Shown in pieces: positions 26,923 to 63,670 of a stretch of DNA of 64,000 nt. The notes under the pieces were generated by a model. That model was not told where the DNA came from and made no database searches. It saw nothing but the letters and a program-made list of their open reading frames with translations. The translations under genes and the position numbers were made by a program. This DNA comes from Eledone cirrhosa (Eukaryota). The stretch spans positions 30,132,001 to 30,196,000 of the forward strand of contig OZ024740.1 in assembly GCA_964016885.1 (NCBI GenBank), read 5' to 3'. Position 1 is the stretch's first letter; every line of letters begins with the position of its first letter.

Positions 26923-27001
26923 CCCTTACTGATCAGTTTCGCTTTGTAAAACCCCAGAAATTCGATGGATATCTGATGGAAAACCAAAGCTCATCAGAGA
27001 A
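26923..27001 (-). ncRNA. Type I hammerhead ribozyme motif with long stem II
   Basis: Minus strand reads TTCT-CTGATGA-GCTTTG...CAAAGC-GAAA-CTGATCAG-TA-AGGG. Intact core, 6-bp stem II base, palindromic stem III ACTGATCAGT, GUA site, stem I with G-U pairs. Confidence 0.8.
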
Positions 27002-27621
27002 GCATTTTCCTGTCCTAGGGCTAAAAGACCCAGGAACGATAAAATATATGACCTCCTGCCAGCTAATACAGGTCTGAAAGGTTGTAAAAGTGACCCGTAT
27101 GTAAACCGGTCCGAAGTAAAAGCGGGAAACCACAGACTTGCTGTCTATAATTACTACTAAAAAAAAATAGCAGCTAATTAGAACAACAGATTTGTTCTCT
27201 ACATAACGGAGCATAATGAATGAAGTTAATATGTCCAAGGATACTAAGTACCCCTATATATATATATATGAATTAAAAATGACATGTACAACTGTCTCGT
27301 GTTTCCATTCTCTATTGGTATGTTTTTCTTTTCTTTTTTGTTGTTCCCTTTGTTATCGTCTGTTCTTTGGGGGGGGGGGGTTCTTTTTGTTTTTTTGTTT
27401 GTTTGTTTTTTTGTTTGCTTTTGTTTTTTTTTGTTTTTTTGTTTTTTTTGTTTTTTTGTTTTTCTCCTGGATAACTATTCCTCTTAGTTATTAACGCACT
27501 GTGGTGAGATGTACTGTCTTTAATGCGTTCGAAACATCAGCGACCCACTGAAGACAGCCAATGAGCTGGAATTATCCTCATGTTTGTGTTTCTCGTATGT
27601 TTTCTAAATAATATATATATA

Positions 27622-27662
<41 letters not shown>

Positions 27663-27793
27663 TAGATAGATAGATAGATAGATACATATATATATATATA
27701 TGTCAACATGAATGGACCTGTTATTTTTATCTAAAGACATGTTTTCCAATTCCATCCCGCCTTTCCCCTCAATCTATTTTATTTCTCATTCTT

Positions 27794-27829
27794 TCTTCTG
27801 GTGAAGGACTAGCGTCCGAAACGTTAAGA
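27794..27829 (+). ncRNA. Minimal type I hammerhead motif with one core substitution
   Basis: TCTT-CTGGTGA-A-GGAC-TAGC-GTCC-GAAA-CG-TT-AAGA. Stems I and II pair perfectly and stem III is palindromic ACGT, but the core is CTGGTGA rather than CTGATGA. Lies in a short (TA)n-flanked segment at 27702-27915. Confidence 0.65.
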
Positions 27830-28339
27830 CCCTCCTCCTGCTATATCAAGCGTTAACCTAATATATCCCTTCCATATACTGTACCGATTGTGTTGTTATT
27901 TCTGTTTACCTTTTACATATATATATATATATAGTATACAAGGATCGGAATTAAGAGTATTCCGCAGTTCACAGTAATAATAATATTAGCTCAAAGAAGA
28001 ATAGAGAATTTTGAGCTCAAATACAAATATATTATACAGAGAAAAGTGTGTTACACAGATATAGATAGATAGATATATTTCTTTTATTTGCCACTAGGGC
28101 ATCAAAAGTGGGACAAGTACAAAGGGGGAAGTTTACACAAGAAGGCGTCCTCAATAAGGAGAAGACAATAACAAAATATAAAAATAAAATAAGATATAAC
28201 AAAAAATAAAATTTTTAACAAAATCCTCAATAGAGAGGAGGCGCCTTGGGGGGTCGCACACACCCCCGAAAAAAGTGTGCAACCCTTCTCCTCAGGAGCA
28301 CAGAGAAGGGGTGCTCCCTTGGTCTTTCATCTTCCTCAC

Positions 28340-31300
28340 CTATAGTCTGATGTAGAGTGAAGGCCCATTCACACGGGCCATTCTCGCCACTTTCACCCAT
28401 CTTTCATAGAAACGGCTGGGGTGCAGCACCTCTCTCTCCATCCTGATCCTTCTTCCGAAATGATATCGGAAGAAACGGACCAGTTGTTGGCCAGAGAGAA
28501 AGGTGCCCGACCTCAGTCCTTTCAGACGCGTCCACCATACAACCTCTTTCGCCATGGCTATTACGCACAGAAACACCGCCTCTGCTTCATCTTTGAAGGG
28601 GGAAGGCGGCTTGATCATTACAATAGACTCGGTGGTCAACCGGATCGGTCCCACCCTTGACAGCAGTTGTTCGACATAGCCCCACAGATCGGCTACGCCC
28701 GAGCAGTGTACTAATGCGTGTGCAACGGTTTCCTCGTCGCACACGCATCTGGGACAGATCTTTTTGGCGGGGTCCCTACCCGGGCGCCCGTGTCTGTAGA
28801 GCCTTTCTCGAACGGGTAAAGCCCCTCGGTAGCACTGCCAGGCCAGGGACTTCTGGAAGTTGTCCATAGGTCCCGGGCTGAATGTCCTACCGAACAGGCT
28901 GGCCAGTTCGTCCTCCTCCATGTCTAGGGCTTCTCCGAGGGCGTCGTCGCACCTGCTACGTACCAGCCCTCTATAGAATGTTGCGGTGGAGTCTCCACTG
29001 ATAACCGGATCCGCCTGCCAGAGGGCGGTGAGCGCCTGGGCACACTCAGTGTGCCAGGCGCCCAGTTTTCTCGGTCTTTGCTTGACCCAGGATTGCAGCT
29101 CGGTGAGTGAGACGAGTCTGGGAAAGGTTCGTCTCACAAACGAGGCCCACACCGGTTGTCCGGTGAGGAGTACGTAGAGGTGCCGTAGCCTTAATGCGTG
29201 TTTACGCATCATTAGCCACGGCATCCCCAGCCCTCCTTTCGAAGGGTGTTGACAGCAGATGGATCTCCTCACCATAGGAGCCCGCCTCTTCCAAAGGAAT
29301 TGGAAGAGCGCGCGCTCCATCTTGGTGAGGGTTTCCCTTGGGCAGGGCACTACGGTCAGGCGGTAGTAGATGACGGACGCTATGTAGGTGTTCGCCACCT
29401 CCGCCCGACCTTTCAGGGATAGTTTGCAACTGGCCCACTTCTGGGTCAGTGCAAACACCCTGTTCGTAACCTCCGCCCAGTTTTTCTCCACCTGGAGGTC
29501 CGGTCCGAACCAGACCCCGAGCAACTTCACCGGGCCCTCCGTCCAGCGTCCGACGACGCTATCGGAGGGCATCGGTCTGCCCCTCCACGTGCCGAGTTGC
29601 AAACCGATCGACTTGTCCCGGTTCAGCTTAGCCCCTGTGAACTTTTCGTACTCCTCCAGTAAGGTGCCGACCGCCTCGATTTCGGAGGCCGTCGACACCA
29701 TTACTGTCACGTCATCGGCGTAGGCCGACACCGCTTTCCGCAATCCCGGTTCCAAAGGGATGCCCTGCAACAACTCCAACTTCCGCAGTAGTGGCTCGAG
29801 AGTCAACACATACAGAAGGGAGGAGAGAGGGCACCCTTGTCGGATGGACCGCGCGATTTTGAACGGCTCCGAGAGGTAGCCGTTCACCTTGACCCTAGAG
29901 CAGATGCGGCTGCTGTGCATAGCAGTGATCCAGCCCCTGAAAACGGGTCCGAAGCCTGCCGCCGCTAGCACCGCATCCAGGTAACCATGGTCGACCCTAT
30001 CGAACGCCTTAGATTGATCCAAGTTGATCAGAGCCCCACCAAAGCCGGGTTCGTTCCCAACCCTCTCTATGATGTATCGCATGAGGTGGAGGTTGTCATG
30101 GATGGACCTGGACGGGATAGCGCATGTCTGCGCATCTCCCACCAGGTTGCCCACGACAAGCGCCAACCTCTTTGCTAGCACCTTGGCCAAAATCTGTAAC
30201 TCTGTATTTAGCAGAGTTATGTGCCTGAAGTTACTTATTTCGTCCCCCTTGTTCTCGTCCTTCCTCACTAGCGTGACTACGCCCTTGGTCACAGTACAGG
30301 GAATTCTCCCGTTCTGTTGCCAGTTGCAGTAGACCGCCTCGAGGAGATCGGGGAACAAGTCCGGCATAGCTAGATATAATTCGTAAGGAAGACCATCAAG
30401 ACCCGGGGATTTGCGTTTGCCGCATTGGCTCAGCACGTCCTCTATCTCAGCGGCCGAAATCGGCTCCTCGCAGGACTTCGCCTCCCTGTCCGAGAGGCGC
30501 GGCAGGCCGTCGAGGTATGGACCGAAGTCCACGTTCCCAACCGGCTCCCCGCCCCTCCCGAACAGTCGGGCAAAGTGCCTTTGAAAGGCCTCACACATCT
30601 GCTTAGGCTCAAGAATCGCCCGTCCATCCAGGTCTCGCAAAGACCGGATGGTGGATTTAGTTCCACTGTTGGCCTCTGTCACGCGGGCCCAGCTAACAGC
30701 TTTGGTCCCCTCGTTCCCTAGAGCACGTATTTTACTTCGGACAACGCAGCCTTCGTGCTTCGCGTCGAAAAACTGGCTCAAAGCCGTTCTCGACGCTAGC
30801 ACTCTGGCCACGTCGCCGCTTCTAATTTCCTCTTCTACTCTATCTATTAGCTCCCTTTCCTTCCTATTCCTATCCGCAGCTAGAACCTTACTAAATTCTA
30901 TCGAGACTACTCTAATCTCTCTCTTTAGAGATACCCACCACCTGCTGTTGACGATCGCTCCAGTCAACCGTTCCTTAACTAACGTACTAATCCGATTCCT
31001 GTAGGCTCTACTTGCCGGCAAGGACAAGTTGAGCTTCCAGTAACCGGGGCCCTGTCTATGAGTTCTGTCAAGGTTGACCATGCAGGTCACTAATTTGTGG
31101 TCTGAATAGCCAACAATGCGCATTTTTGGACAACTTAAAAAGTCCTTATCCTTAATTCTAACTAAGAACCTATCTAGGTACGACCTAGATGATCCGCTAC
31201 GATTTGCCCAAGTCCAGGTTGGCGCAGTCGGAAAATCTAGTCGATATCTATCGGCCAGGTCAAATCGACCGATTAACCCTTTGAGGCTATTACACCCCTC

Positions 31301-31777
31301 TCTATCGGGGCAGGCCCCTACGTAGTCCCAGCGTGCATCTAGGATACCATTCCAGTCCCCCACTAATAGCAAGGAGCGGGACGTCCCTAGAAAAGTCTCC
31401 AGACGATGGAAGAAGTCCGGCCGCATTGACCCGAAAGGGCCGTAGGCGGCTACCAACCTAAACGCTCCGCCTTTACCACTGCCAAGGTCCAGAACCACTA
31501 GTCGACCCTCCGGGTCCAAATGTACCATCTGTGTTGCGAGACCCAGATGTTTTTGCAGCAGAACGACAACTCCACCCCCACCTCCGGGCTGACAGAGAGA
31601 TGCGTGCATCTCAAAGTCATCAAAGGTGGGGGCCAGCTGTCGCACGTTGCTGATCCGGGCCTCGCAAATAACCATCACATCTATACGTTGTGACCTGAGG
31701 TCATTTAGAAGCATTGCTTGCTTCCAAGTTGAGCCCAGGCCACGCGCATTTAAACAGCCTACTCTTAGCATAGCCAT
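28340..31777 (-). CDS. LINE ORF2: AP endonuclease, reverse transcriptase and C-terminal CCHC zinc finger (about 1145 aa from the ATG at 31777)
   Basis: APE motifs CLNARGL, GDWN, SYLDRFLV and YSDHKLV. RT motifs KSPGLDG, LDQSKAFDRVDH, RQGCPLS and AYADDVT. Zinc finger CPRC...ETVAHALVHC. The frame is uninterrupted. Confidence 0.93.
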   Translation of the reverse strand: MAMLRVGCLNARGLGSTWKQAMLLNDLRSQRIDVMVICEARISNVRQLAPTFDDFEMHASLCQPGGGGGVVVLLQKHLGLATQMVHLDPEGRLVVLDLGSGKGGAFRLVAAYGPFGSMRPDFFHRLETFLGTSRSLLLVGDWNGILDARWDYVGACPDREGCNSLKGLIGRFDLADRYRLDFPTAPTWTWANRSGSSRSYLDRFLVRIKDKDFLSCPKMRIVGYSDHKLVTCMVNLDRTHRQGPGYWKLNLSLPASRAYRNRISTLVKERLTGAIVNSRWWVSLKREIRVVSIEFSKVLAADRNRKERELIDRVEEEIRSGDVARVLASRTALSQFFDAKHEGCVVRSKIRALGNEGTKAVSWARVTEANSGTKSTIRSLRDLDGRAILEPKQMCEAFQRHFARLFGRGGEPVGNVDFGPYLDGLPRLSDREAKSCEEPISAAEIEDVLSQCGKRKSPGLDGLPYELYLAMPDLFPDLLEAVYCNWQQNGRIPCTVTKGVVTLVRKDENKGDEISNFRHITLLNTELQILAKVLAKRLALVVGNLVGDAQTCAIPSRSIHDNLHLMRYIIERVGNEPGFGGALINLDQSKAFDRVDHGYLDAVLAAAGFGPVFRGWITAMHSSRICSRVKVNGYLSEPFKIARSIRQGCPLSSLLYVLTLEPLLRKLELLQGIPLEPGLRKAVSAYADDVTVMVSTASEIEAVGTLLEEYEKFTGAKLNRDKSIGLQLGTWRGRPMPSDSVVGRWTEGPVKLLGVWFGPDLQVEKNWAEVTNRVFALTQKWASCKLSLKGRAEVANTYIASVIYYRLTVVPCPRETLTKMERALFQFLWKRRAPMVRRSICCQHPSKGGLGMPWLMMRKHALRLRHLYVLLTGQPVWASFVRRTFPRLVSLTELQSWVKQRPRKLGAWHTECAQALTALWQADPVISGDSTATFYRGLVRSRCDDALGEALDMEEDELASLFGRTFSPGPMDNFQKSLAWQCYRGALPVRERLYRHGRPGRDPAKKICPRCVCDEETVAHALVHCSGVADLWGYVEQLLSRVGPIRLTTESIVMIKPPSPFKDEAEAVFLCVIAMAKEVVWWTRLKGLRSGTFLSGQQLVRFFRYHFGRRIRMEREVLHPSRFYERWVKVARMARVNGPSLYIRL

Positions 31778-31801
31778 GTTGGTGGTGAAGAGAAAAGGCA
31801 C

Positions 31802-33582
31802 TTACCTCTCTGCGTCCCGGGTATCGGGCTGCACAATTTCCATTAGGGTGGGGGATGGGTTGTTGGGTGGGGTGGTGGTTTGTGGAAGTGTGGGGGCATC
31901 AGTGTGTTGTGTGGTTGGGGAGCTTGGAGTTGTGAGGGTGTTTGGGGAGGGGGTGGGATAGTTTTTTAGGAGGACGCGGTTAATGGGCCCGACGCAGGGG
32001 GGACCCACGTCCTCTTTAAAATTGTTTTTTAAAGTTTTATAGGTGTCCTGTGGGGCCTTAATCATTTTGAGGTGGGGGAAATCCCCTGCCTGGGTGAAGT
32101 TAGGCCCTTGGGTTTTTATTAGATTGTTGTTGTACACAATGTTTAACAGTTTTTTGTTTCTTGTATTTATGTATGTGTATGCATGTTTTTGTTTTTGTGT
32201 GGTGTTTTTTGTTTGCTGTTGTGAGCTCTTTTGTGTTGGTGTCAGTGTTATGTTTTGGGGAGGGGTTTTTTTCATTTGTGTGTCTGAGGTGTGTTTTCTT
32301 TTTTTTCTTTTGATTGTGTGGAAGTGCTCCTCCTCGTCTGACGACGAACTAGGGTCATCTTCCGCGTTGGAGGGGAGGGGTATATTTTCGGGTTGTGTTT
32401 GCGGTACGGGTGTTTTGGAAATTGTTTTTGTTTTTTGAGTGGAGGGGATGGGTTGGACATTGTTTTGTTTTGGTTTGAGCTGTGGTGGTTGTTTTTGTAG
32501 TGGTAGTTGTGGTGATTGTGTTGGTTGTGCAGTTGTTGGTGGTGTAGGCAGGATTGGGGTTTTCTTATTAAGTTGGGGACAGACAGCCCTCAGGTGACCT
32601 CTGGTTCCGCAGAGGTAACACGAGGGCCGTCTACCCTCAACGGTAATGTTGATGAAGGTTAGATCATCCAGTATGACGCGTTCAGGGATCTGGGCGATCC
32701 TTTCGGGCCTCATTTGAACTACAAGTTCGAGGCTCGTTCCACTGAACGCGTCACCCGATGCCTTTCCCATGGACACCAGCATGTCATCCTCCAGGTCCAG
32801 AAAACCTGTCAAAACCCACCATATGTCCATAATCGGCAGGATGGTGTGGATTTTTATTTTTTGTGTTCTTCTACCCATGTACGTAGGGTAGAAGGTTTAT
32901 GCGGTGGATGTGATTGGTTTGATGGACAGTTTCACTGCTGTGTCCCTGTCCTTCATGAGAATGGATAGACTCCCGTAGAGTCTATCCTTCTGAATGAAGG
33001 TGATGTCCTTCATGACGTCTTTTAAAACCAGCTCTATCTCGCTCTGTGATGGTTGAGCTGGTTTTTTACTTTTGTTCGAGATTGTCCTAAACATGACCGT
33101 GTTTAGGAGTCTCTGGCTTTTTAGTTCCGGGGGGGAATGGATTGTGAATTTTCTCCGTACACTATATATTTTTTCGCATCCGCCAGTAGCTCCTTCGCTT
33201 TTGTTATATCTACTGGCAGATAGTCGAGGGTTTTCCTTGTCGTCTCGGCGAAGGAGAAATTTTGTTTGTTTGTGTTGTTGTTGTCGTTGGTGGTGTTGTT
33301 GTTATCATTGTTGTTGTTGTCACCGTTATTGGTCTTGTTGTTGTTATTGTTATTGTTATTGGTGTTGCTTTCGTCCGTCGCATTGTTGTTGTTGTTGCTG
33401 TTGCTGCTGGTTCTTTGGGTTGTTGCCATGGCAACGTCAAGTTGTCGGTTAACAGGTGGAGAGAATTCTTCCTCTGGCTGACCTATCTTCTTGACCTCTG
33501 CTACTGTGACAGTGGCAGGGGGAAGCTGTAAGTTCATCTTCCCCTTTCCTCCTTCGAATTTTGGTGAAGAAGCTTCGGCCAT
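31802..33582 (-). pseudogene. LINE ORF1 (gag-like, CCHC zinc knuckle) disrupted by one frameshift and one stop
   Basis: Three ORF-track pieces: 33121-33609, 32897-33094 and 31802-32878. The last two are in frame across a TAA; the first is in another frame. Knuckle CYLCGTRGHLRAVC; poly-Asn stretch from an (AAC)n tract. Confidence 0.8.
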
Positions 33583-37929: not shown

Positions 37930-39700
37930 ATATTTCTTTATTTGCCACAAGGGCGCACAAGAAAAGGGGACAATACAAAGACACATGCCGGGGATTTTAC
38001 ATACAGTCGTGTAAAAAAAATATAAAACAAATAATTATAACAATCGAAATCCCCAATAGGGGGGAGGCGCCACAAATGGTTGTTTAATACCCCGTCGATA
38101 GAACAACCCTCAACTTCAGGAGCGTGTTGTGCAAGTGCTCCCTTCTTCCTTTTGCTCTCTTCTTTAACCTACAGGTTTATAAACAGAGAAGGCCCAATCA
38201 CTCGGGCCATTTCCGCTTCATTCACCCACCTTTCAGTAAATTTACTGGGGTGCAGTGCCTCTCTCTCCACTCTGATTCTCCTTCTAAAGTGGTATCTAAA
38301 GAAGGGAATGTGTTGTTGTCCGGAGAGAAAGGCATCTGTCCTCAGTCCTCTCAATCTCGTCCACCATATAATCTCTTTCACCATAGCCACCGTACAGAGA
38401 AAAACCGCCTCTCTCGTTTTTGAAAGAAGTTAGCGGTTTGATCCTTACTATGGACTCGGCAGTCAACTGGATTTGTCCCATACGCGACAGCAGTTGTTCC
38501 GCGTAGTTCCACAGGTCGGTTACGCCCGGGCGGTGTACAATTGCATGCAGGACGGTTTCAATGTCCTGCACGCATCTTGGACACATCCTCTTGTAAGGAT
38601 CCCTGCCGGGGCGTCCGTGCCTGTAGATCTTGTCACGAATTGGTAGAGCTCCTCGGTAGCATTGCCAGGTCAAGGATCTCTGGAAGTTGTCCATAGGTCC
38701 CGGGCGGAAAGTCCTACCAAACAGACTGGTGAGCTCATCGTCTTCGACGCCCAGAGTCTCTCCGAGCACGCCGTCGCCCTTGTAACGTACAATCCCTGTA
38801 TAGAATGTCGAAGTGGAGTCTCCACTGATTGCTGTGCCCGCTTGCCAGAGGACTGTGAGTGCCTGAGCGCATTCAATGTGCCAGGCGCCCATCGTTTTCG
38901 GTCTTTTCTTGACCCAGGACTGCAGCTCCGTCAGCGAGAAGAGCTGCGGGAAAGCCTGTCTCACAAACGGTGCCCACACCGGTTGGGAGTCGGTGAGGAA
39001 TACCTGGAGGTGCCGCAGCCTCAGCGCATGTTTGCACATCATCAGCCATGTCATTCCCAGCCCTCCGATGGAAGGGTGCTGACAGCAGACGGAACTCCTC
39101 ACCAGAGGAGCCGGCTCGTCCACAGAAACTGGAAGAGCATGCATTCCATCTTGGCGAGGTGTTCACGGGGACAAGGCACGACAGTCAAGCGGTAGTAAAT
39201 GACTGACGCTATAAAAGTGTTCGCACACCTCCGCTCGGAGGACAGTTTGCACTCTGCCCACTTCTGGGTGAGCGCAAACACCTTGACCGTGACCTCGTTC
39301 CAGTTTTTCTCCACCTGGAGATCTGGACCGAACCAGACCCCGAGCAATTTCACCGGTACCTCCGTCCAGCGTCCAACGATGCTGTCGGACGTCATCGGTT
39401 TGCCTCTCCACGTACCGAGCTGCAAACCGACACACTTGTCCGGGTTAGTTTTGCTCCCGTCAGCGTTTCCTATTCTTTCAGTAGGTTCCGATCACCCGAA
39501 TTCCGAGGTGCTCGATACCATTACCGTCACGTCGTCGGCATAAGCCGATGCCGCTTTGCGCAGTCCCGGTTCTAGAGGGATAACCTACAACAGCTCCAAT
39601 TTCCGCAGTAGTGGCTCTAGAGTCAATACATACAGAATGGAGGAGGGAAGGCATCCCTGTCGAATGGAACGCGTGATTACGAACGGCTCCGATAGGTAAC
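37930..39700 (-). mobile_element. 5'-truncated, frameshifted Tx1-like LINE (same subfamily as the 34485 copy)
   Basis: Fragments RQGCLPSSILYVLTLEPLL, QLGTWRGKPM...VYYRLTVVPC-like and CPRCVQDIETVLHAIVH match ORF2 in shifting frames. (GATA)n at the 3' junction, 37913-37930. Confidence 0.9.
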
Positions 39701-39701
39701 T

Positions 39702-41723: not shown

Positions 41724-41726
<3 letters not shown>

Positions 41727-41873
41727 CGAAGGAAATGTGGTAAGGAACCAGATCGACGATAACGCACCAAAGTACTCAATACTTAGGGTAGTAGAGTGGG
41801 TAATAGGAACGAGTAGGCAGAATTAGCCGTCGAAACGGTTTGAGCTCAGCCGTCGGGGTCCTACTCGTTCCTA
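41724..41873 (-). mobile_element. Micro Penelope-like insertion, second copy (full inverted arm, short direct remnant, tail)
   Basis: Reverse complement reads TAGGAACGAGTAGGACCCCGACGGCTGAGCTCAAACCGTTTCGACGGCTAATTCTG / CCTACTCGTTCCTA / tail. (TA)n on both sides. Confidence 0.75.
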
Positions 41874-41914
41874 TATATATATATATATATATATATATAG
41901 ATAGATATAGATAT

Positions 41915-42266: not shown

Positions 42267-42309
42267 GTCAAAGTTCTTTCGTCACACATTTTGTGACCTC
42301 GTCAGTGAC
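42267..42309 (-). ncRNA. Minimal type I hammerhead ribozyme motif
   Basis: Minus strand reads GTCA-CTGACGA-G-GTCACA-AAATG-TGTGAC-GAAA-GAAC-TT-TGAC. 4-bp stem I, 6-bp stem II, intact core, CUU site. Lies in a (TA)n-flanked segment of about 260 bp (42115-42373). Confidence 0.75.
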
Positions 42310-42395: not shown

Positions 42396-42772
42396 TACAA
42401 TATATTAACAAATGGAAACTATATTTATAAAACCATATTTATTTCATTATACATATTTCAAGGACACCAAAGCAAATTATGGTGCGCTTTCATCAGATAA
42501 AATATAATATAGATCAGTTTTATAAACAAATATTTGACATACCCTTAAAAGAATGCGACGCTGTCTGTTGGAAGCTCCGGGATAGTGGGGTTACTAATTT
42601 TATTATTGGTCTATTATGCAAATTAGTGTCGGAGAGGTTTAAATCCCATACATTTAAATTTTATTTTATTTTTTATTTTATTTTATTTTATTTTATTTTA
42701 TAGTATGTATTTTGTATTTATATATATATATATATATTTGTGTGTATATGTATGTGTGTATATGTATGTATG

Positions 42773-43360: not shown

Positions 43361-45482
43361 ACTAGTAATAAAATTATTGTACACGCAGATAAAACTAATA
43401 ACATATACAGCCTAGATTATAATACTTATAGAAAGTTTATATATAATGAACTACATAAAAGCTACAAAAAAACCACCTTGAAAAACTTAGAAGATATTAA
43501 TGTAGAGGGTTATAATATAGTGTCTAAACTAGGACTGCAGAGGCATACACAACCTTTCACTCCGAACCCCCCTAGATTCTCTCTGAAGGACCATAAGGAG
43601 AACTTCATCAGCAACCCCACGATAAGACTTATCTTCCCTTCCAAGTCCGACATTGGTATTATCAGCAAGAAGATTTTGGATAAAATCATCCCACAAATTA
43701 AACACAAGATACACCTTAAACAATGGGGAAATACGGGTGAAGTGATTGAATGGTTCAAGGATATCAAGAATAATAAGAACAAAAAATTTGTTCAATTTGA
43801 TATCAATTCATACTACACCTCTATTTCCCCTATCCTATTAAATAAGGCACTTATCATGGCCATGAGCAATAGCGACCTGACTAGAGCCCAGGTTGATGTC
43901 ATCCTTGCGGCCCGTAAAACCATAATCACCTTCGAGGACCAACTATGGACACGCAAGGATACGCACAACAACTTCGACATAACCATGGGATCTAGTGACT
44001 CGGCGCAGGTCACTGATTTGGTCGGCCTATACCTCCTCAATGAAATCCATAAGGACCTCCCTTACCTCAACGGTGGTTTGTACCGCGATGATGCACTTCT
44101 ACTTATAGAATATAAAAAATTTAATATAGAAAGAACTAGAAAAAATTTTGCATAAGACATTCAAAAACTTTAACCTTAGTATCACCATGGACAAAAACAC
44201 TAAAAATGTTAACTTCCTAGACGCCACACTATACCTAGACTCAAAAATATATACACCTTTCCATAAGCCTAACGAGAAACTTATTTACGTAGATACCAAG
44301 TCTAATCACCCTAGATCAATATTAAACTCTATCTCTAAGGGGGTGTCCAATAGAATCTCTAGTCTGTCCTATGACGCAAACATATTTAGCAAAAACTCAC
44401 AATATTACAATCAAGCATTAGCTAGCTCCGGCCATAATATAGAAATTGAGTTCCTACCTAAGAAAACACATAGCTACAACATCATCTCGCACAACATGTC
44501 CATGGGGAAACCTAATAATAGGAATAGCAACCACAAGTGCACCAAAGCGGAGGGTGCCACCGGAAGTAACCATTACCATGGAAACTACTGTGGGGCCTTA
44601 GGAGGAAGCAACACACCAAACACTAAAAGCAAAAATAGAAGAAGAAATAATACATTTTTCAACCCTCCTTTCAACCTAAATGTCTCCACCAACATACCTA
44701 GGGCTTTCTTCTCACTACTAGATAAAAACTTCCCTCTAGGACACAAGTACCACAACCTCTTAAACAAAAACACCATTAAAATCTCATACTCTACGACACC
44801 TAACTTAGCATACCACATAGCTAGCAGCAATAATAGTAAAATTAGTTCTTACTTCCAACAAACAAAATCACAACGGGATGCAAACCCTCTAAATACCACT
44901 GTAGCAAGCAACCATAGCAACGGCAGTAACAATAGAAATAACACTAGTATAAGTAATAACACCAGGGTTGTCAACCCGAACGCCCAAAATCCTATAGCTA
45001 CCACACAGACTTCCGCACTGCATTATAACCAGCGGACTAACGCACAGGATAATTGTAACTGTAGAGCTAACAGAACCTGCCCTTTAGATAAAAAATGCCT
45101 AACCAAGGATATCATATACTCATGCACCGTCACGACTAACAACTCTTCAGAAACCTATGTAGGCTCCACTTCTAACTGCTTCAAAATCAGATATAATTCG
45201 CACATCCACTCGTTCAAAAAGCACAGCCTAGCAAACTCCACCTCACTTTCTAGCTACATACACTATCTAAAATCTAAAAATAAACCATACACACTCAAAT
45301 GGGAAGTGATAGGCAGCGCGACCTCGTACAAACCACCTAATAAATTTTGTAACCTCTGTATACTAGAGACACACAATATTATCTTCTCCAACCGTAACCT
45401 ACTTAACAAAAAATCTGAGGTGTTTGCAACTTGCCAGCACCGCTTCAGACATTCCTTCCAAAACTTTAAGCCCAATATATAG
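43361..45482 (+). pseudogene. Penelope-like RT plus GIY-YIG endonuclease (about 700 aa), with a single frameshift near 44148
   Basis: ADKTNNIY, FVQFDINSYYTSI, FDITMGSSDSAQVTDLVGL, GLYRDD, NFLDATL, SNHP, linker CNCRANRTCPLDKKC, IIYSC...YVGST, RYNSH, CNLCILE, LNKKSE...CQH. The two ORF-track pieces overlap at an A-run. Confidence 0.92.
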
Positions 45483-46926: not shown

Positions 46927-46973
46927 TGCTCCAAAGAATCCAAACCTCGGTTTGGAGGAAACAGCTGTAAGCA
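46927..46973 (+). ncRNA. Type I hammerhead-like motif with decayed core, in the element B pLTR
   Basis: TGCT-CCAAAGA-A-TCCAAAC-CTCG-GTTTGGA-G-GAAA-CAGCTG-TA-AGCA. Perfect stems I and II, palindromic stem III ACAGCTGT, GUA site; the core is CCAAAGA instead of CTGAAGA. Confidence 0.65.
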
Positions 46974-47217: not shown

Positions 47218-47589
47218 AAAGTTCTATTTAAATTGTTGGGATACAACAAGCAAATATTTTTATAACTGATATAAAGCACTGAACAAGTATTTGGAGTAAA
47301 CATACGATATTAACAAATGGAAACTATATTTATAAAACCATATTTATTTCATTATACATATTTCAAGGACAGCAAGTTAACTTATGGTGTGCTTTCATCA
47401 GACAAAATATAATATAGATCAGTTTTATAAATAAATATTGACATACCCTTAAAAATGCAACCATTACTGTTGGAAGCCCCCGGATAGTGGAGTTGTTTAC
47501 TTATATTTTTATTAGTATTGGATATTTTTATTTTTAAAATAAGCCGTTGGGTTACAGAGAAAGAAAAAGAAGGAGAGAGAGAAAAAAAA

Positions 47590-47639: not shown

Positions 47640-50600
47640 AAAACAACAGAGAGCGAGAGGAGCCAGAGAGAAGAGGAGAGAACGAAAACTCTAAGTCATA
47701 TCTTGTTGAGTTAACTTAACAATTGAGATGAAATGAATAAATAAAATAAGAGATGTTAATAATCATGAATGGAATATACATATATAATATCAGAAATTAA
47801 TCATTGTTTAAATATGATTAGATGTTTAGTTAATCATTTAAAAATTGAGATCAATATATTAAAAATTGGGATCTATACATTAAGAAATTCATATATTGCT
47901 AGAGAACTACATATCATATAACACGTATACACACGCAAAAATACATATAAATATATATACACTCTTATAAAATACATAACATATCTAACTACGTATATAA
48001 TATATACATACAAAACATAAAGGATTCTTTAATTTAATTTAAGATATAGGAATCTTTAAAATGTTATAATTGTTAAGATATTAAAGGAAATTTTATGTTA
48101 TACACACTTTATGTTATTAAACAAAATTTTTTATATAAGTTTTATAAGATTACCTGTTATGTATTTATGGCTGTTAATTATATGTCTATCTGTCAGGAAT
48201 CATTGGGATAATCACTATACATAAGTGCAATCAAATTGTATGGATATACACGCACATGCATATACACAATTCTCACATACATATATATACATGTGTGTGT
48301 ATGCTCAGCCAATATGTTGATACGCATCACGCATACATATACATACAGACAGACATACATTCATAAAAACGCATAGAACATATGTACATGTATGTCAATA
48401 CACACATATGCATATATACTCACATATAGAGAGAAGTATATATCAATACAGTACATAGTATAATTGAGTACATAAAATACAAAAGGATTATATTACAATT
48501 TGGAAATATAATTATAAGCAATATAACTTTAAAAGCAATACAATTTTAAAATATTATAGAATATTTTAAGTTATAATTTCAAAATAATAGTATGTTTAAT
48601 AGATTTAGTATAGAAATTTATCTTACGTATATTTAACTCAAAATTTTGAAAGGATAAACATTCGAAAATAGGAGAAGCTATCGGAACAATAAGAAAACAA
48701 TAAAAAAAATAAGAAATAGGAAATATTTTCTCCTTTCAAGAGCTCTCAATATATTTCTCTAGAATAGTTTATTATATTTATATTTATTTATATTTAGGAA
48801 GAAAAGTTATTTTTACTTGAGTGTATAATCAGTAAAAAAAGATGAAGGAATCTAATGATTTATCGACAGGTTTCATATATTAATAAAATTAAGTAATTAA
48901 TTATATACTACATTTTAAATTTACATTTATATTTAAACTAAACGTTGAGTTTAATCTATGTCTGCAGCAACTGAATAAATTATTCCTTAAGTTCAGGGAA
49001 TTTTTGTTCTTTAATATAAAGAATATTTCCTCTATACAAAGATCGCAATTTTCTGAAGAGGAGTTAAAAGGAGTAGCTTTTGAAATAATATTCCAAATCA
49101 ACGAATATTCAACGTTCTTTAGTTTTAGGTCTCATAATAGGCTAGATAGAGAAGTTGAAAATTTTTTGTTTGGATCTGTAAAAGAATTTTTATGATTATT
49201 GAAGCGAGATTTAAACACTGTGGAAGTAGATCCCACATAATTAAATGAATTTAAATTAGTTTTTACATTACAATTATATACTACATTTTTAGCTAAGCAA
49301 TTGTTATTTAACGGACAGTTAGATTTATTTCTACAGTTACATTTATCAGATTGAATATTGCTTGGGTTATTATTGGTATTTTGGTTAGGTTTTAAATTTC
49401 TATTATTAATTCTATTAATATTTTGCGCTAAATTTTTGATGGAAGAATAAGTTCATTTTATAGTATGTCTATTAAAAATTGAGTAATATCTATGTGTTCT
49501 AGAGAAGCATTTGTCAAGAGCTTTAAAAAATAGTTTAGCAATAGGGGTTTTAATATTTAATGAGAAAAGAGGAGCGAACCATAATATGTTCCTAGTTCTA
49601 TTTCTTTTTCGGCTTTCGGAATTAATGTAAGGTTTTCTATTATAGTTGTTAACATTGTTACCATAGTTAAAATTGTTACGATTATGGTTAGTTGTTATAT
49701 TATTATTATTATCGATGTATTTAATTTTATTTCTATACCCAGCTCTACCTAACGCTTCGTTGTAATAATGTGCTTTTTCATCAAATATATTCTTATTAGC
49801 TGAAATTCTCGAAATTCGTTCTTGTACAGAGTTCACTATAGTATTTTTAACGGATCTGGGGTGATTAGAGTTAAAATTGACGTAATTTAAGTTCTCATTT
49901 AGTTTGTGAAATGGATAATGAAGACATGTGTTAAGATTTAGTGTTACATCTAGAAAATTGACTATTTTATGGTTATTCTCTATTTCTACTTTTAGATTAA
50001 GGCAATTAAAAAATTGTATAATTTGTTTTCTTTTTCTATTTAGTTCACAGTTATTATTTTCTATAAGTAAAAGCATTTCGTCACGATATAAACCTCCGGT
50101 TATCTCAGGTATTTTTCTATGTAGAGAATTAATTATAAATAGGCCCACAAGATCCGTTACCTGAGCGGAATGTTATGTCGAAATTATTATTTCTATCTGC
50201 CCTAGTCCCGATAATATAATGTGCATTTCATTGCTAGTTATGTCTGTATGTTTAAATGCGTAAGTTAGTGCGTTATTCAGTAGATTAGGAGTGATAGATA
50301 AGTAATAGTTAGCAATATCCAACTGAATAAACTTATTATTATAGTTATATTTAATTTCTTTAAACCAATCGATAACTTCACTAGTTCCCTTCCATAATTT
50401 TAAATAAGATAAATTAGATAAATTCTTAATTTGTGGTATTATTCTGTCCAGAATATTTTTGTTAAGTCTGCCAAGGTCCGATTTAGATGGTGTAATTAAA
50501 CTGACTGGTAAATCAGTTTCGAAGTTCCTTTTATGATCCTCTCTCTATATCTTTCTCTCTCTGTTGTTTTGGTCTCTCTCTCTCTCTTTTCTCACTCTCT

Positions 50601-50882
50601 CTTTTTCTCTCTCTCCTTCTTTTTCTTTCTCTGTAACCCAACGGCTTATTTTAAAAATAAAAATATCCAATACTAATAATAATATAAGTAAACAACTCCA
50701 CTATCCGGGAGCTTCCAACAATAATGGTTGCATTTTTAAGGGTATGTCAATATTTATTTATAAAACTGATCTATATTATATTTTGTCTGATGAAAGCACA
50801 CCATAATTTAACTTGCTGTCCTTGAAATATGTATAATGAAATAAATATGGTTTTATAAATATAGTTTCCATTTGTTAATATC

Positions 50883-51089: not shown

Positions 51090-51643
51090 TCTATCCACGC
51101 TAACTCATCCACTATATATTTATCTTTTCGCTTCATCATCTCATAAAACTATGTTAATACAACACTCTCTCACTTTGGGTTTTCTCTCTTTCTCTTTCTT
51201 TTGTTTTTTCTATTCCTTTTCCTTTCCTTTCTTTTGTTTTCCTTCTTTGGGTTTGCTCTTTCTTTCTCCTTTTCTCTATTCCAACGGCTTAATTTAAATG
51301 TATGGGATTTAAACCTCCCCGACACTAATTTGCATAATAGACCAATAATAAAATTAGTAACCCCACTATCCGGGAGCTTCCAACAGACATAGTCGCATTC
51401 TTTTAAGGGTATGTCAAATATTTGTTTATAAAACTGATCTATATTATATTTTATATGATGAAAGCGCACCATAATTTGCTTTGGTGTCCTTGAAATATGT
51501 ATAATGAAATAAATATGGTTTTATAAATATAGTTTCCATTTGTTAATATATTGTATTTTCACTCCAAAAATTTTGTTGAGTGCTTATTATCAGTTATAAA
51601 AATATTTTCTTGTTGTATCCCAACAAATTAAATATAACTTCTA
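50952..51643 (+). mobile_element. Penelope-like element A, right part: 3' UTR end, 3' pLTR and tail
   Basis: Matches the inverted 42396-42660 segment. Homologous to the element C pLTR and tail (TTGTTGTATCCCAACAA). Confidence 0.78.
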
Positions 51644-53820: not shown

Positions 53821-54147
53821 GGTTATGCACGAGTGCATTAATGTTTTCCAGGACACAGTGTTATGTACCGTATAGTGGAATGTCAGCTTACAGCAGAGTG
53901 GTGCTCAACGAAATGCAGAAAAAAGGTGTATATTCCAGTTTAGCTATATTCCGGGGCGTGTATAAAGAATTAAAAAGAACAGAAAGATGCAGTAAAAGAG
54001 ATTTATTCGGTTCTTACGTACGTTTCAATAGACATCAATTTGCCTAGATCTCGCTACATCTATAATATTATATATTTAGTAGAGCATTCGATATCCAATG
54101 CACAATCGATCCCATATCATCTTCCACTCACTCTCTCTTCCTCTCTT

Positions 54148-54990: not shown

Positions 54991-55021
54991 TTGACGATGG
55001 CTAATAAGCTTGAAACTAGTA
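54991..55021 (+). ncRNA. Degenerate hammerhead-like motif
   Basis: TTGACGA-T-GGCT-AATA-AGCT-T-GAAA-CTAG-TA, with palindromic ACTAGT and a GUA site. Stem I does not pair. Confidence 0.4.
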
Positions 55022-55262: not shown

Positions 55263-55264
<2 letters not shown>

Positions 55265-55405
55265 GGAACCAGTAAGACCCCGACAGCTGAGCTCAAGCCG
55301 TTTCGACGGCTAATTCTGGACTAAATTACCCACTCTACTACCTCAAGTATTGAGTACTTTGGTGCGTTATGGTCCACCTGGTTCCTTACCACATTTCCTT
55401 CGTTA
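55263..55405 (+). mobile_element. Micro Penelope-like insertion, third copy (inverted arm joined directly to the tail)
   Basis: TAGGAACCAGTAAGACCCCGACAGCTGAGCTCAAGCCGTTTCGACGGCTAATTCTGGACTAAA followed by the shared tail. (TA)n on both sides. Confidence 0.75.
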
Positions 55406-55705
55406 TATATATATATATATATATATATATCATAAAATATGTCTATAGAATCACCAGATAAAATATATACCGTTTCCTCTCCCAATTAGCATAATTAACC
55501 ATATAAAATCAATTAGACCAAACTATAATAATAAAAGCTCCTATGAAGAAATCTCCGACAAATAACCGAAAGCAGCCCCTTCGCGGCGGTTACGACGGAT
55601 CATTTATCGGATATTTTGACAGCATGTATAAATCGACCAGATATACAGTCAACTAAACAGAATTAGGTGTAAAATAAACTAGAAGAAAAGTGTACATATG
55701 TAATT

Positions 55706-55783
55706 ACCTTTACCATGGTTTCATCCGCATTTTAAGACATCCGATAACATTGGATATCTAGAGCTTCGGATTCTTCAGGAAGT
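55706..55783 (-). ncRNA. Type I hammerhead ribozyme motif with long stem II
   Basis: Minus strand reads ACTTC-CTGAAGA-ATCCG...AGATATCC/GGATGTCT...CGGAT-GAAA-CCATGG-TA-AAGGT. Intact core, palindromic ACCATGGT, GUA site. Confidence 0.8.
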
Positions 55784-56229: not shown

Positions 56230-56383
56230 TTCATTATTTAACGATCGTTTCTAGGATATATATGTGTTAGAATTGGCATGCATATTCAACAGATCTATGT
56301 ACAAAATTATACAAAATTATACAAACTATCAAGATTAAATATACATACCAACACATATATACGCCGTCTTCAGAAATAATGAA
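56230..56383 (-). ncRNA. Hammerhead motif in the inverted pLTR of element E
   Basis: Reverse complement of 63517-63670. Confidence 0.75.
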
Positions 56384-57059: not shown

Positions 57060-57268
57060 CATATATATATATATATATACACACACATATATATATATAA
57101 TATACATATATATACACATAGACACACACACACACATACATAAATATACACACATATACAAACACATACATACATATACACACATCCACACTAAGAACAT
57201 ACATACACACACATATATAAACATATACATATACACACATACATACATATACACATATACATACAAAT

Positions 57269-57317
<49 letters not shown>

Positions 57318-57683: not shown

Positions 57684-57721
<38 letters not shown>

Positions 57722-58117
57722 CATATACACATACACACACATACACATACACACACATACATACATGTACACACACATAGAAATATATACGCATACACAC
57801 ATACATATAAAGTCATACACACACATACACCTACACGAACATACACATACACATATATAAAGATATATATACACACACACACACACACAACGCATACACA
57901 CATACACATATATATAAAAAAAAAAATAATAAATAATAAAGATATATACATATATATATATATACACATATATATATACATATATACATATATATACGCA
58001 TACATATATATATATACATACACATACATACACACATACATAGACATACATGTACATGCATACACGTACATCGATATACATACATATATATATACACACA
58101 TAGACATATACATACAA

Positions 58118-59395
58118 GTAGTAAATTTCCTAGATATAACTTTAGATTTAGCTACGGGTATCTACCAACCTTACCATAAACCTAACCAAAACTTACATTA
58201 CATACACTCACAATCTAATCACCCTAAATCTATCCTTAAAAACCTTGCATATAATATATCACTTAGAATTTCTAACCTTTCTTCTAACCAAGATGTATTT
58301 GATAAAAATGCGACCTTCTATAACGAAGCTCTAGATAGAAGTGGCCACAAAAATAGATTAGAGTATATACCCTCTACTAAAAATACTGAAAGCATACAAC
58401 ATAATATTACCAACAAACACCAAATGAAAAGTACACACCTAAATGCCACCCACACTATACCCCAAAATACCAAATCTTCTAATATAAAGTATAGTAACTC
58501 TCAAAAAACTACTCATCATACAACTCTAATAAATATTAATAATAAAACTCCTAATAAAAAGGATAAAACACCTAAATCTACAAATATAACTAAAAATAGT
58601 TGTGGTGAGATCATTAACATTAATCCTCCTAGTAAAAATCACGATACAACCTATAAAAATAATAAAAATAATAAACAACATAGAAACCGTAATAGACGGG
58701 TTACTTGGTATAATGCTCCTTTTAATTTACAAGTTAAGGATAATATTGCTAAAAAATTTTTTTATATCCTTGAGAAAAACTTCCCGCCAAACCACAAATA
58801 CCATCAAATCTTAAATAGGTCTACAGTTAAATTCTCATACTCTACAACAAATAACATAAAACAAAATATAAGTGCCTATAATGCATATAAATGTAAGAAA
58901 ACCATAAGTATACCACCAGTACATCAAATTAACCATAATATCTCCTCAAATACAGAATTAACGAAAGGATGTAACTGTAGAAACAAAGCAAACTGCCCAT
59001 TAAAAGGGAATTGTCTTGTTAACAACATAGTCTATAAATGTAATGTTAAAACTAAAGATTCTATTTGCTCATATATAGGAGCTACCTCTAACAATTTTAA
59101 GACAAGGTTTAATACCCACAAGCATAGTTTTAAAAATGCCGCACTGGCTAATACAACATCTCTAGCAGAAAAAATCAATAGTTATAAAAATAAGAATATA
59201 GAATATGATTTGACCTGGAGTGTGCTCAAAAGAGCCACCCCTTATCAAAATAATAGAAATGAATGTAGATTATGTTCCCAAGAACTATTTGAAATAATGA
59301 AGTCTAAGGATATCTTATTAAATAAACGACAGGAATTAATTATATCGTGTAATCATAAACTAAAAAAAACATTTAAATATTATAAACCTAATTAA
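58118..59395 (+). pseudogene. 5'-truncated Penelope-like ORF (RT thumb, linker, GIY-YIG), frame still open
   Basis: VVNFLDITL...YHKPN...SNHPKS is in frame with the 58424-59395 ORF, which contains WYNAPF, CNCRNKANCPLKGNC, IVYKC...YIGAT, RFNTH, CRLCSQE and LNKRQE...CNH. Confidence 0.9.
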
Positions 59396-60747: not shown

Positions 60748-60792
<45 letters not shown>

Positions 60793-61046
60793 ATATAGAA
60801 ATATATATATGTGTATATATATGTATATGTATATGTGTGTGTATGTATGTGTGTGTATGTGTGTTGTGTATATATATGTATGTCTCTCTATTTATATGTC
60901 TATCTTCGTATCTATGTGGATATATGTGTGTGTGTGTGCATGTATGCACATATATGTGTTTATGTGTATATGTGTGTATGTGTGTATATATGTGTGTATG
61001 CACACACATATATATGTGAGTGTGTATATGTGTCTGTGTATATGTA

Positions 61047-61083
<37 letters not shown>

Positions 61084-61166
61084 GTGTCTATGTGTGAATA
61101 TATGTCTATATTCGTATGTGTGTATATATGTATGTATATGTTTATATGTATATATATATATATATG

Positions 61167-61215
<49 letters not shown>

Positions 61216-61461
61216 TTTTATTATTATAATATAACTTATGTGTATGTGTGTATATGTGAGGTTGTGTATGTGTATATAATATGTGTATATATAAGTGTAA
61301 AAAAATATATATATATGTGCATGTCTGTTTTTTATGTGTGTGTATATATATATATATATATACGTGTGTATATATATGTATATGTGGGTGTTTGTATGTG
61401 TATTTATGGTGGTATGTGTGTGTGGGTATCTATATATATATATATATATGAATGTATGTGT

Positions 61462-61507
<46 letters not shown>

Positions 61508-62152
61508 GTATATATATATCTCTATTAATGCGTGTATATATGTATATACATATGCCTTTTTATTTTTATTTGTATGTCTGAGTTAGGTGAGGTTGTAGTG
61601 GTGTTTTTATGTATATACGCATATATGGATGCGTATGTATTTGTATATATGAATATAAGTAAGTGCATATGTATGTATGATTATATATCTAATTCTATGT
61701 ATGAATATACATGTATATATATGTGTGTATGTAAGTTGTGTGTGTATGTATGTATATGTCTATGTGTGTATATATATATGTATGTATATCGATGTACGTG
61801 TATGCATGTACATGTATGTCTATGTATGTGTGTATGTATGTGTATGTATATATATATATGTATGTGTATATATATGTATATATGTATATATATATGTGTA
61901 TATATATATATATGTATATATCTTTATTATTTATTATTTTTTTTTTTTTATATATATGTGTATGTGTGTATGCGTTGTGTGTGTGTGTGTGTGTATATAT
62001 ATCTTTATATATGTGTATGTGTATGTTCGTGTAGGTGTATGTGTGTGTATGACTTTATATGTATGTGTGTATGTTGTGTATGCGTATATATTTCTATGTG
62101 TGTGTACATGTATGTATGTGTGTGTATGTGTATGTGTGTGTATGTGTATATG

Positions 62153-62185
<33 letters not shown>

Positions 62186-62554
62186 GTTATATATATATAT
62201 GTATATATATGTGTGTGTGTATATATATATATATATATCTATATGTTTTTCTATTTGTATATGTATGTGTGTATAGGTATATACCTTTCTCTTTGTATGT
62301 CTAAGTTGTGTGATAGTGTAGTGGTGTTTGTATGTATATACCGATATATAGATGCGTAAGTATTTGTCTGTATGTATATATGTAAGTCTGTATATATTTG
62401 TGTGTATATATAGCTATGTATGTGTATATCTGTATGTATATTAGTATGTAAGTGTTGTATATGTGCATGTATGTGTGTGGTTATATATATGTGTGTCTAT
62501 ATAGTATGTGTGATTATATGTATATGTGTGTGTATATGTACGTGTATATACATA

Positions 62555-62601
<47 letters not shown>

Positions 62602-62810
62602 ATTTGTATGTATATGTGTATATGTATGTATGTGTGTATATGTATATGTTTATATATGTGTGTGTATGTATGTTCTTAGTGTGGATGTGTGTATATGTAT
62701 GTATGTGTTTGTATATGTGTGTATATTTATGTATGTGTGTGTGTGTGTCTATGTGTATATATATGTATATTATATATATATATGTGTGTGTATATATATA
62801 TATATATATG

Positions 62811-62864
<54 letters not shown>

Positions 62865-63516
62865 CTTGATATATTTCTTTTTTCTTTTTTCTTTTTTCTT
62901 TTTTCTTTTTTCTTTTTTCTTTCTATTCTTTCCTCTTTAATGTTTATTTATTATTTTTTATTTTCTTAGTTTATAGATACATCTATATTAGGCAGTCTGC
63001 TCAGACCGTTGAATACTGACCTCTCCCCCCCCCCTCCCACCTAATTTCTGTATCTTGATCTAAAAATGTGTGTGCCAGTGTTTATGTGAGTGAATTAATA
63101 TCCATGTGCTTATGATTTTATATCCACATATATAAATGTGAGTGGGGGTGTGTGTGTGTTTGTATGTTCGTGGTTATGTGTATATTTATGCATATACGCG
63201 CGTGTATGTGTGATTGTACGGATATGTGAGAGTATGAAAAAATATATTTATATACTTAATTTCATACTTGTGTCAATACGCATCTTATCTGTGCATTATA
63301 AACTTACAGAGACATTAACCTTGAAATTTTGTATTTGCATCCATCCTTTTAGTATGCGTATACAAATTATACATACATTTTTGTAAAATATGTGTAAGGG
63401 TTTTACATGTATATACACACACCGAACTGCATTTAACCCTTTGTGTTTTCATTGGTCAATTTTTGTTCCCAAACGGACCTGAAATTTTGAATTGTTGTTA
63501 TTATCAATAAATATAC

Positions 63517-63670
63517 TTCATTATTTCTGAAGACGGCGTATATCTGTGTTGGTATGTATATTTAATCTTGATAGTTTGTATAATTTTGTATAATTTTGTA
63601 CATAGATCTGTTGAATATGCATGCCAATTCTAACACATATATATCCTAGAAACGATCGTTAAATAATGAA
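63517..63670 (+). ncRNA. Type I hammerhead motif with a 10-bp stem I and a stem II insert of about 115 nt
   Basis: TTCATTATTT-CTGAAGA-CGGCGTATATCTGTGTTG...TAACACATATATATCCTA-GAAA-CGATCG-TT-AAATAATGAA. Palindromic ACGATCGT, GUU site. Confidence 0.78.

What the first reader, a model, noticed from the sequence alone, without database searches (positions are those of the whole stretch)
26923..63670. Many sequence-distinct hammerheads share a palindromic stem III
Seen: stem III reads ACTGATCAGT (26923), ACGT (27794), ACAGCTGT (46927), ACGTACGT (half motif, 54011-54032 minus), ACTAGT (54991), ACCATGGT (55706) and ACGATCGT (56230 and 63517), and the loop is TGAGCTCA in the micro family. The sequences differ, but each is a perfect palindrome. 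Established: minimal PLE and retrozyme hammerheads with weak palindromic stem III cleave as dimers. Inference: self-complementarity is under selection, and the differing palindromes could act as family-specific pairing codes, so that only same-family RNAs or tandem pLTRs activate each other.
Basis: partly seen in the sequence, partly recalled or inferred. Interest (0 to 1): 0.7.

Follow-up and report, generated by a model that had tools for sequence, protein, structure and literature searches.

The report
Dimer-type hammerheads of Penelope retroelements
These are small hammerhead RNA motifs from the ends of many Penelope-type jumping-gene families, and their self-complementary third arm likely lets two copies pair and cut each other, a published design; the arms are shared between unrelated families and are not always palindromes, so they are not a family code on their own.

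Summary
The listed palindromes are at the stated places and belong to type I hammerheads at the ends of Penelope-like element (PLE) families, including Hydra-like ones. Only 3 of the 8 listed copies look intact, two of those are one family on opposite strands, and the 'micro family' has no hammerhead core. A palindrome-blind scan of 1.4 Mb of this genome gave 135 motifs against 1.3 per shuffle: 70 perfect palindromes, 18 G·U-wobble, 47 neither. Self-complementarity is real and likely selected, and stem III is nearly fixed within families. It is not a unique code: 12 of 43 families share an identical string, more collisions than chance, and the commonest family (AGAACT, also in this window at 42271) is not a palindrome. 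In a double hammerhead stem I is swapped too, and it is stem I that separates the five ACAATTGT families. Near-intact copies of one young family carry two hammerheads 4.2 kb apart on one strand (21 of 25), so pairing in cis would need no code. Palindromic helix III and dimer cleavage are published, and this scan reached the same verdict before on other DNA of this genome. No cleavage was measured. Ordinary; low interest.

The parts
26927..26997 (-). Type I hammerhead, intact core CTGATGA, 50-nt stem II region, stem III ACTGATCAGT; no RT linked in the loci held
   Evidence: 25 family copies, 12 identical to each other; 1529 first-look candidates
27798..27825 (+). Minimal hammerhead with no loop 3 (ACGT); this copy has A6G
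   Evidence: 16 of 20 nearest copies CTGATGA; GIY-YIG coding remnant upstream in L241 and L255
42271..42305 (-).
   Evidence: AGAACT in 19 of 22 copies; ORF pieces just upstream in many loci
42448..42496 (-).
   Evidence: arm of inverted repeat I7
43361..45479 (+). 5'-truncated, frameshifted ORF of young Hydra-like PLE family A (RT plus C-terminal GIY-YIG)
   Evidence: 96-98% to the 832-aa family protein; family copies at 96-99%
46931..46969 (+). 3' hammerhead of family A, stem III ACAGCTGT; family core CCGAAGA (U4C), this copy also G5A
47353..47401 (-). 3' hammerhead (ATATGTAT) of the PLE at 48940-50541, 1.54 kb past the ORF end
48940..50541 (-). Broken PLE ORF pieces (RT and endonuclease)
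   Evidence: 40-45% to family A protein
50787..50835 (+). Inverted copy of the ATATGTAT hammerhead at the 5' side of the same element
   Evidence: inverted repeat I4
51455..51503 (+). ATATGTAT hammerhead with C3A
   Evidence: inverted repeat I7
54015..54121 (-). Hammerhead cut inside its core, long stem II, stem III ACGTACGT
   Evidence: homologue L255 (94% over 161 nt) has the whole core
54991..55021 (+). Damaged hammerhead (C3T, no 5' stem I strand), stem III ACTAGT, of a family that forms tandem units of about 400 nt
   Evidence: 21 of 25 ACTAGT; tandem array in L112
55711..55778 (-). Hammerhead, stem III ACCATGGT, first pair of stem I broken in this copy
56240..56373 (-). Inverted copy of the family B hammerhead, 115-nt stem II region, stem III ACGATCGT
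58121..59389 (+). 5'-truncated ORF of young PLE family B
   Evidence: 97% to the full ORF in L052; many copies at 99%, some in arrays of about 6.7 kb period
63527..63660 (+). 3' hammerhead of family B, stem III ACGATCGT, 4.1 kb past the ORF end
26600..26790 (.). 'Micro family' copy: short repeat set in (TA)n with a TGAGCTCA hairpin; no hammerhead core, so not counted as a ribozyme (other copies near 41725-41875 and 55264-55410)

Best explanation
These are type I hammerhead motifs in the terminal repeats of many Penelope-like retroelement families, and their short self-complementary stem III likely works by letting two copies on one tandem transcript form a double hammerhead and cut out a unit-length RNA. 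Shown: motif anatomy, link to PLE ORFs, tandem same-strand layout in family A, constancy within families, sharing between families. Predicted by folding energies: stem III is unstable as a hairpin and stable as an intermolecular duplex. Taken from published work on other species: dimer-dependent cleavage. Inferred: selection keeps self-complementarity, not a particular sequence; the string drifts by compensatory change and is inherited along lineages; any family preference is a by-product and would rest on stem I as well as stem III, because both are exchanged in the dimer.
For: 135 palindrome-blind hits in 1.4 Mb against 1.3 per shuffle, 88 of 135 fully self-complementary with G·U allowed. 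Central 4 nt palindromic in 16 of 25 distinct strings against 1.5 expected. Hairpin energy above zero in 40 of 43 families, not formable in one (ACGT), below zero in two; duplex stacking -5 to -18 kcal/mol in 40 of 43 before the 4.1 initiation cost. 21 of 25 near-intact family A ORFs have a hammerhead 215 nt upstream and about 1.49 kb downstream on the same strand; L052 shows the same for family B. ATATGTAT occurs in two RT lineages 54% identical, with ATGCGCAT nested among them at modest support 82/75. Identical strings collide more than chance and the five ACAATTGT families differ in stem I. Published: Cervera and de la Pena 2014, PMC4209133; Perreault 2011, PMC3088659, Fig. S8 legend; review PMC6765202.
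Against: No cleavage or RNA evidence was obtained. The commonest family has AGAACT, with a predicted duplex of only -2.7 kcal/mol, yet it is abundant with copies 96-97% alike, and family A is young with a U4C core that lowers activity in vitro in another ribozyme; both could mean that cleavage matters little. Genomic 3' ends of family A run at least 46 nt past the cleavage site, so the copied RNA was uncut or rejoined there. Cervera and de la Pena found only low activity even for dimers. Distinct strings are not phylogenetically independent, so the P values are descriptive. The family A loci were chosen for long open frames.
Confidence: 0.8

Rival explanations
1. The palindrome is a selected family-specific pairing code that stops RNAs of different families from activating each other.
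For: Stem III is nearly fixed within families; 31 of 43 families have a string seen in no other family; many families coexist at about 100 motifs per Mb.
Against: 12 of 43 families share an identical string; 16 identical pairs among 16 perfect 8-mers against 1.9 (uniform) or 2.7 (AT-rich) expected, the opposite of selection for distinct codes, though shared descent inflates it. One family carries both ATATGTAT and ATATATAT. Related families with like stem I and like stem III are predicted to cross-pair. Pairing in cis between tandem copies would make a code unnecessary. Constancy within young families is expected from recent copying alone.
Confidence: 0.06
2. Two-part lock used in trans: stem I and stem III together let non-autonomous repeats and autonomous partners, or separate transcripts of one family, activate each other while excluding others.
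For: By a lenient energy rule 258 of 1806 ordered family pairs are compatible in stem III, 75 in stem I and only 28 in both; none of the five ACAATTGT families is compatible with another in both.
Against: The same pattern follows from independent drift; the rule is relative to the weaker homodimer and so generous; trans pairing of 8-10 bp plus 4-8 bp at cellular concentrations is untested; 18 of 43 families still have a predicted foreign partner.
Confidence: 0.08
3. Most motifs are no longer needed as ribozymes; palindromes persist from ancestry or arise through template switching during reverse transcription.
For: Five of the eight listed copies are damaged; successful families carry U4C, U4A or a non-palindromic stem III; Craig et al. 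2021 report PLE clades that spread without canonical hammerheads; inverted junctions are common in these elements.
Against: Core, stem I, stem II and stem III pairings are all kept across 43 families whose sequences differ widely; damage in single insertions is expected after integration; multi-base compensatory differences such as ATAT, GCGC and ACGT centres on a like stem I are hard to get without selection.
Confidence: 0.06

Closest known systems
Minimal and small-palindromic-helix-III hammerheads in pLTRs of metazoan Penelope-like elements (Cervera and de la Pena 2014, PMC4209133; Lunse et al. 2017, known here by title only)
   Same: Type I topology, position in pLTRs, extra base between 9 and 10.1 in many families, palindromic 15.2-16.2 and loop 3, many sequence families per genome, U3-A8 core variant, opposite-strand pairs a few hundred nt apart, mostly solitary truncated copies.
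   Different: Longer palindromes (8-10 nt) are common here; many families have 50-115 nt in stem II; young family A has U4C; the commonest family has non-palindromic AGAACT; about 100 intact-core motifs per Mb.
Hydra clade PLEs and their hammerheads (Craig et al. 2021, PMC8557442, section 11 and File S2)
   Same: Family A has RWR, DKT, CxCx5C, CxxC and CxH motifs, a C-terminal GIY-YIG without the paired cysteines, and ends in (TA)n. File S2 lists odd-centred stem III (acca-a-tggt in Hydra-1_oBim), like ACCACTGGT here.
   Different: Units here are 4.2 kb and about 6.7 kb, longer than the 'generally under 3 kb' described; copy numbers are very high (28,564 first-look RT candidates).
Metazoan non-LTR retrozymes (Cervera and de la Pena 2020, PMC7229834)
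   Same: The ACTAGT family forms short non-coding tandem units, each with one type I hammerhead (L112); axolotl motifs with a palindromic tetraloop cleave better as dimers.
   Different: Unit about 400-430 nt, at or just above the reported 170-400 nt RNA range; circular RNA not shown here.

Membership tests
Type I hammerhead ribozyme | Core CUGANGA...GAAA...UH with stems I, II, III in type I order | tested here: met
   Met in 3 of the 8 listed copies and 4 further window copies; the other 5 listed copies are damaged members of families that meet it, family A with U4C
Type I hammerhead ribozyme | Self-cleavage after H17 | not testable with these tools
   Needs in vitro transcription
Type I hammerhead ribozyme | Core present in the 'micro family' | tested here: not met
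   0 of 104 copies with CTGANGA in 95 nt upstream; loose core no more often than a rough chance estimate
Dimer-type PLE hammerheads | Short, unstable, self-complementary helix III | tested here: met
   27 of 43 families perfect or wobble palindromes; hairpin predicted stable in only 2 of 43
Dimer-type PLE hammerheads | Located in pLTRs flanking an RT and GIY-YIG ORF | tested here: met
   Family A 21 of 25 near-intact ORFs flanked on both sides; family B; AGAACT family. No ORF link found for the ACTGATCAGT, ACCATGGT or ACTAGT families in the loci held
Dimer-type PLE hammerheads | Cleavage higher as dimer than as monomer | not testable with these tools
   Published for other species only
Hydra clade PLE (family A) | RWK-type motif, DKT, CxCX5C linker, CxxC and CxH, no CCHH, C-terminal endonuclease | tested here: met
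   Read by eye from the 832-aa protein against section 11 of PMC8557442; RWR in place of RWK
Hydra clade PLE (family A) | Insertion into (TA)n | tested here: met
   The nine short 3' ends are followed by TA-rich repeat sequence; the window copy ends in (TA)n
Hydra clade PLE (family A) | Falls in the Hydra clade on an RT tree with reference elements | not tested
Non-LTR retrozyme (ACTAGT family) | Short non-coding tandem repeat with one type I hammerhead per unit | tested here: met
   Direct tandem units of about 400-430 nt in L112
Non-LTR retrozyme (ACTAGT family) | Expressed as linear and circular RNA | not tested

The most novel reading that the evidence does not exclude
Dozens of co-resident PLE families use the double hammerhead as a two-part lock: swapped stem I and stem III together restrict activation to same-family RNAs, in trans as well as in cis, and the most numerous family (AGAACT, with an AGGACT variant) pairs through tandem purine-purine mismatches instead of a true palindrome.
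Probability: 0.1. Interest if true: 0.55.

Novelty: new member of a known kind. Interest (0 to 1): 0.2.

Why it matters
As it stands it adds families to a published design. The genome is a good natural library for the open question of what PLE hammerheads do: roughly 290,000 intact-core motifs by extrapolation, at least 43 families, young families with both tandem copies, and natural controls (same stem III with different stem I, like stem I with different stem III, non-palindromic and long-hairpin stem III, U4C and U4A cores). If family-restricted activation in trans were shown, it would be an RNA-only self/non-self filter among retroelements, but the sequence evidence leans against selection for such a code.

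Tried and rejected
Rfam scan of the window: only microsatellite-driven matches among those listed, no hammerhead. Pfam did not recognise the PLE fragments, only the LINE ORF; they were identified by tblastn and motifs. My first descriptor missed family A because of its CCGAAGA core and was widened. 'Micro family' as type I, II or III hammerhead: rejected. Linking AGAACT to the L061 RT: rejected, since it has its own ORF and L061 goes with ACCACTGGT. The 91-nt 3' extension class is an artefact of differences in the reference copy and is read only as 'at least 91'. The '43 of 43 families have a stem III partner' figure is inflated by weak families and is not used. Lunse et al. 2017 could not be read and may already test mixed dimers. 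A wider RT-to-palindrome tree was not built: only 11 linked rows, most with unique labels, so no shuffled-label test was run. Searches for a published family code: (no paper with hammerhead, heterodimer, retrotransposon and stem III together).
Full report
Setting. The window lies at C1:30132001-30196000 of a 3.0-Gb genome. Bases 1-25776 are a 23-bp satellite; the rest is AT-rich, full of microsatellites, one LINE with APE-type endonuclease and RT and several Penelope-like element (PLE) pieces. An octopus-like animal is my inference from the repeat landscape and from the likeness of the elements to those that Craig et al. list for Octopus; I did not test it.

Observation. All eight strings are present between GAA and the cleavage base. 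Three copies look intact: 26927(-), 56240(-) and 63527(+); the last two are arms of one inverted duplication, lie on opposite strands and cannot pair on one transcript. Five are damaged copies of real families: A6G at 27798 (shared by 4 of the 20 nearest copies, the window's included), G5A at 46931, C3T and 5' loss at 54991, a broken first pair of stem I at 55711, and a cut core at 54015-54121. The 'micro family' has no core in 104 copies; a related hairpin sits in the 3' region of one PLE family in 6 of 8 loci, so it is a repeat with a hairpin, not a ribozyme by this test.

Census. I took 140 evenly spaced 10-kb stretches from 17 large contigs and scanned with a descriptor that fixes only A15.1 and U16.1 in stem III. 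At score 18 it gave 135 motifs against 1.3 per local dinucleotide shuffle (3 shuffles): 70 perfect palindromes, 18 with G·U, 27 with one mismatch, 7 odd-centred, 13 other. With wider cores: 142 against 9.6, and none of the 48 shuffled hits was a perfect palindrome. Clustering all held DNA with stem III masked gave 55 clusters from 354 hits. I kept 43 for the family tests and dropped 12: one tandem satellite and 11 singletons with non-CTGA cores (two such singletons were kept by hand).

Self-complementarity is real. Among 25 distinct even-length strings the central four bases are a Watson-Crick palindrome in 16 (1.5 expected) and self-complementary with G·U in 20 (3.8 expected); the strings are related by descent, so this is descriptive. 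Predicted hairpin energy is above zero in 40 of 43 families, ACGT cannot close a loop, and two families have a stable 5-bp hairpin that would not need a partner. Within families stem III is nearly fixed when copies are gathered by BLAST without the descriptor: ACTAGT 21 of 25, AGAACT 19 of 22, ACGATCGT 10 of 10, ACCACTGGT 5 of 6. That is expected of recently copied elements and is not in itself a sign of selection.

It is not a unique code. ACAATTGT serves five families, ATATATAT four and ATATGTAT three; 31 of 43 have a string of their own. Among 16 families with perfect 8-mers there are 16 identical pairs against 1.9-2.7 by random draw. One family has ATATGTAT in 12 and ATATATAT in 10 of 25 copies. 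The commonest family in the random sample (20 of 142 hits, level with the ACTAGT family) has AGAACT, is 96-97% alike among its nearest copies and is the 3' motif of a PLE with its own RT and GIY-YIG. Odd-centred strings (ACCACTGGT, ACCTCTGGT, ACCTTTGGT) resemble those already tabulated for Hydra elements. On a tree of 18 C-terminal fragments, 11 with a linked hammerhead, ACGATCGT marks two sister rows, and ATATGTAT marks two lineages 54% identical with ATGCGCAT between them (support 82/75); 7 of 15 inner branches are open. This fits inheritance with compensatory change, not one code per RT. Links rest on the nearest same-strand motif and a few may be wrong.

Mechanism. From the geometry of the double hammerhead (established; Fig. 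1A legend and text of PMC4209133; the stem I point is my inference from that geometry), each core uses its own CUGANGA, stem II and GAAA with the partner's UH and 3' strand of stem I. So stem I is exchanged along with stem III. By a lenient rule 258 of 1806 ordered pairs fit in stem III, 75 in stem I and 28 in both, and the ACAATTGT families are separated by stem I alone. In family A, 23 of 25 near-intact ORFs have a hammerhead 215 nt upstream, 22 have one about 1.49 kb downstream and 21 have both (two further long frames in L016 were dropped as not matching the family start, and two of the three downstream misses had too little sequence). A read-through transcript would thus carry two identical motifs 4.2 kb apart, and a homodimer would form in cis with no need for a code. 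Genomic 3' ends run past the cleavage site, which fits the circular-template model that Cervera and de la Pena propose or an uncut template. None of these RNA steps was observed.

Against this reading. Family A is young yet has U4C in 52 of 52 copies, a change that Perreault et al. say lowers activity in vitro while a viroid stays infectious. The L133 family has U4A and a long hairpin stem III. AGAACT has a weak predicted duplex. Published dimer activity of minimal PLE motifs was low. These leave room for ribozymes that are slow, assisted or dispensable.

Literature seen. PMC4209133: parts 1-2 of 4 of the text. PMC6765202, PMC7229834, PMC3088659: passages only. PMC8557442: passages, section 11 and rows of the supplementary files returned by term searches; other File S2 rows were not seen and may hold more stem III variants. 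Lunse et al. 2017: title only. The palindromic helix III and dimer model are stated in these papers. I found no paper proposing a family code, with the caveat of the unread paper. Position numbering of the core and the idea of purine-purine pairs in AGAACT/AGGACT are from my own knowledge. Earlier notes of this scan on other pieces of the same genome reached the same verdict; they are not independent evidence, and my reading was recorded before I saw them.

Verdict. Observation partly confirmed; dimer-type PLE hammerheads, a known kind; palindrome-only code not supported. Interest 0.2.

Noticed in passing
window 46931-46969; L001-L020: Young family A has core CCGAAGA (U4C) in 52 of 52 copies and an A·G opposition at the base of stem II; the L133 family has CAGAAGA (U4A) with a 5-bp, 7-nt-loop stem III. 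Young families with predicted slow cores.
   Followed up: partly
window 42271-42305; L167-L196: Very abundant PLE family with fixed non-palindromic stem III AGAACT (variant AGGACT twice); may pair through tandem purine mismatches or be weakly active.
   Followed up: partly
window 56240-56373, 26927-26997, 55711-55778; many loci: Many families carry 50-115 nt in the stem II region, far longer than minimal PLE hammerheads.
   Followed up: no
window 26600-26790, 41725-41875, 55264-55410: Abundant short repeat in (TA)n (104 motif matches in about 2 Mb, inverted halves counted apart) with frequent fold-back 5' ends and a TGAGCTCA hairpin; a related hairpin lies about 250-280 nt past the ORF of the L061 PLE family. 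Origin unexplained.
   Followed up: partly
L112:3000-5400; window 54991: ACTAGT family forms tandem non-coding units of about 400-430 nt, retrozyme-like, with one inverted copy.
   Followed up: partly
window 28340-32896 (-), second decayed piece 38296-39575: LINE with a 1153-aa open ORF2 (Exo_endo_phos, RVT_1, zf-RVT) and ORF1-like frames upstream.
   Followed up: no
window 1-25776: 23-bp satellite, about 1118 copies.
   Followed up: no
G000:C1:183738328-183758567: Four family B ORFs in direct tandem at about 6.67 kb period, a natural multi-hammerhead array.
   Followed up: no
L001-L020: Nine of the family A 3' ends stop 46-47 nt past the predicted cleavage site, a preferred end point for reverse transcription start.
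   Followed up: partly
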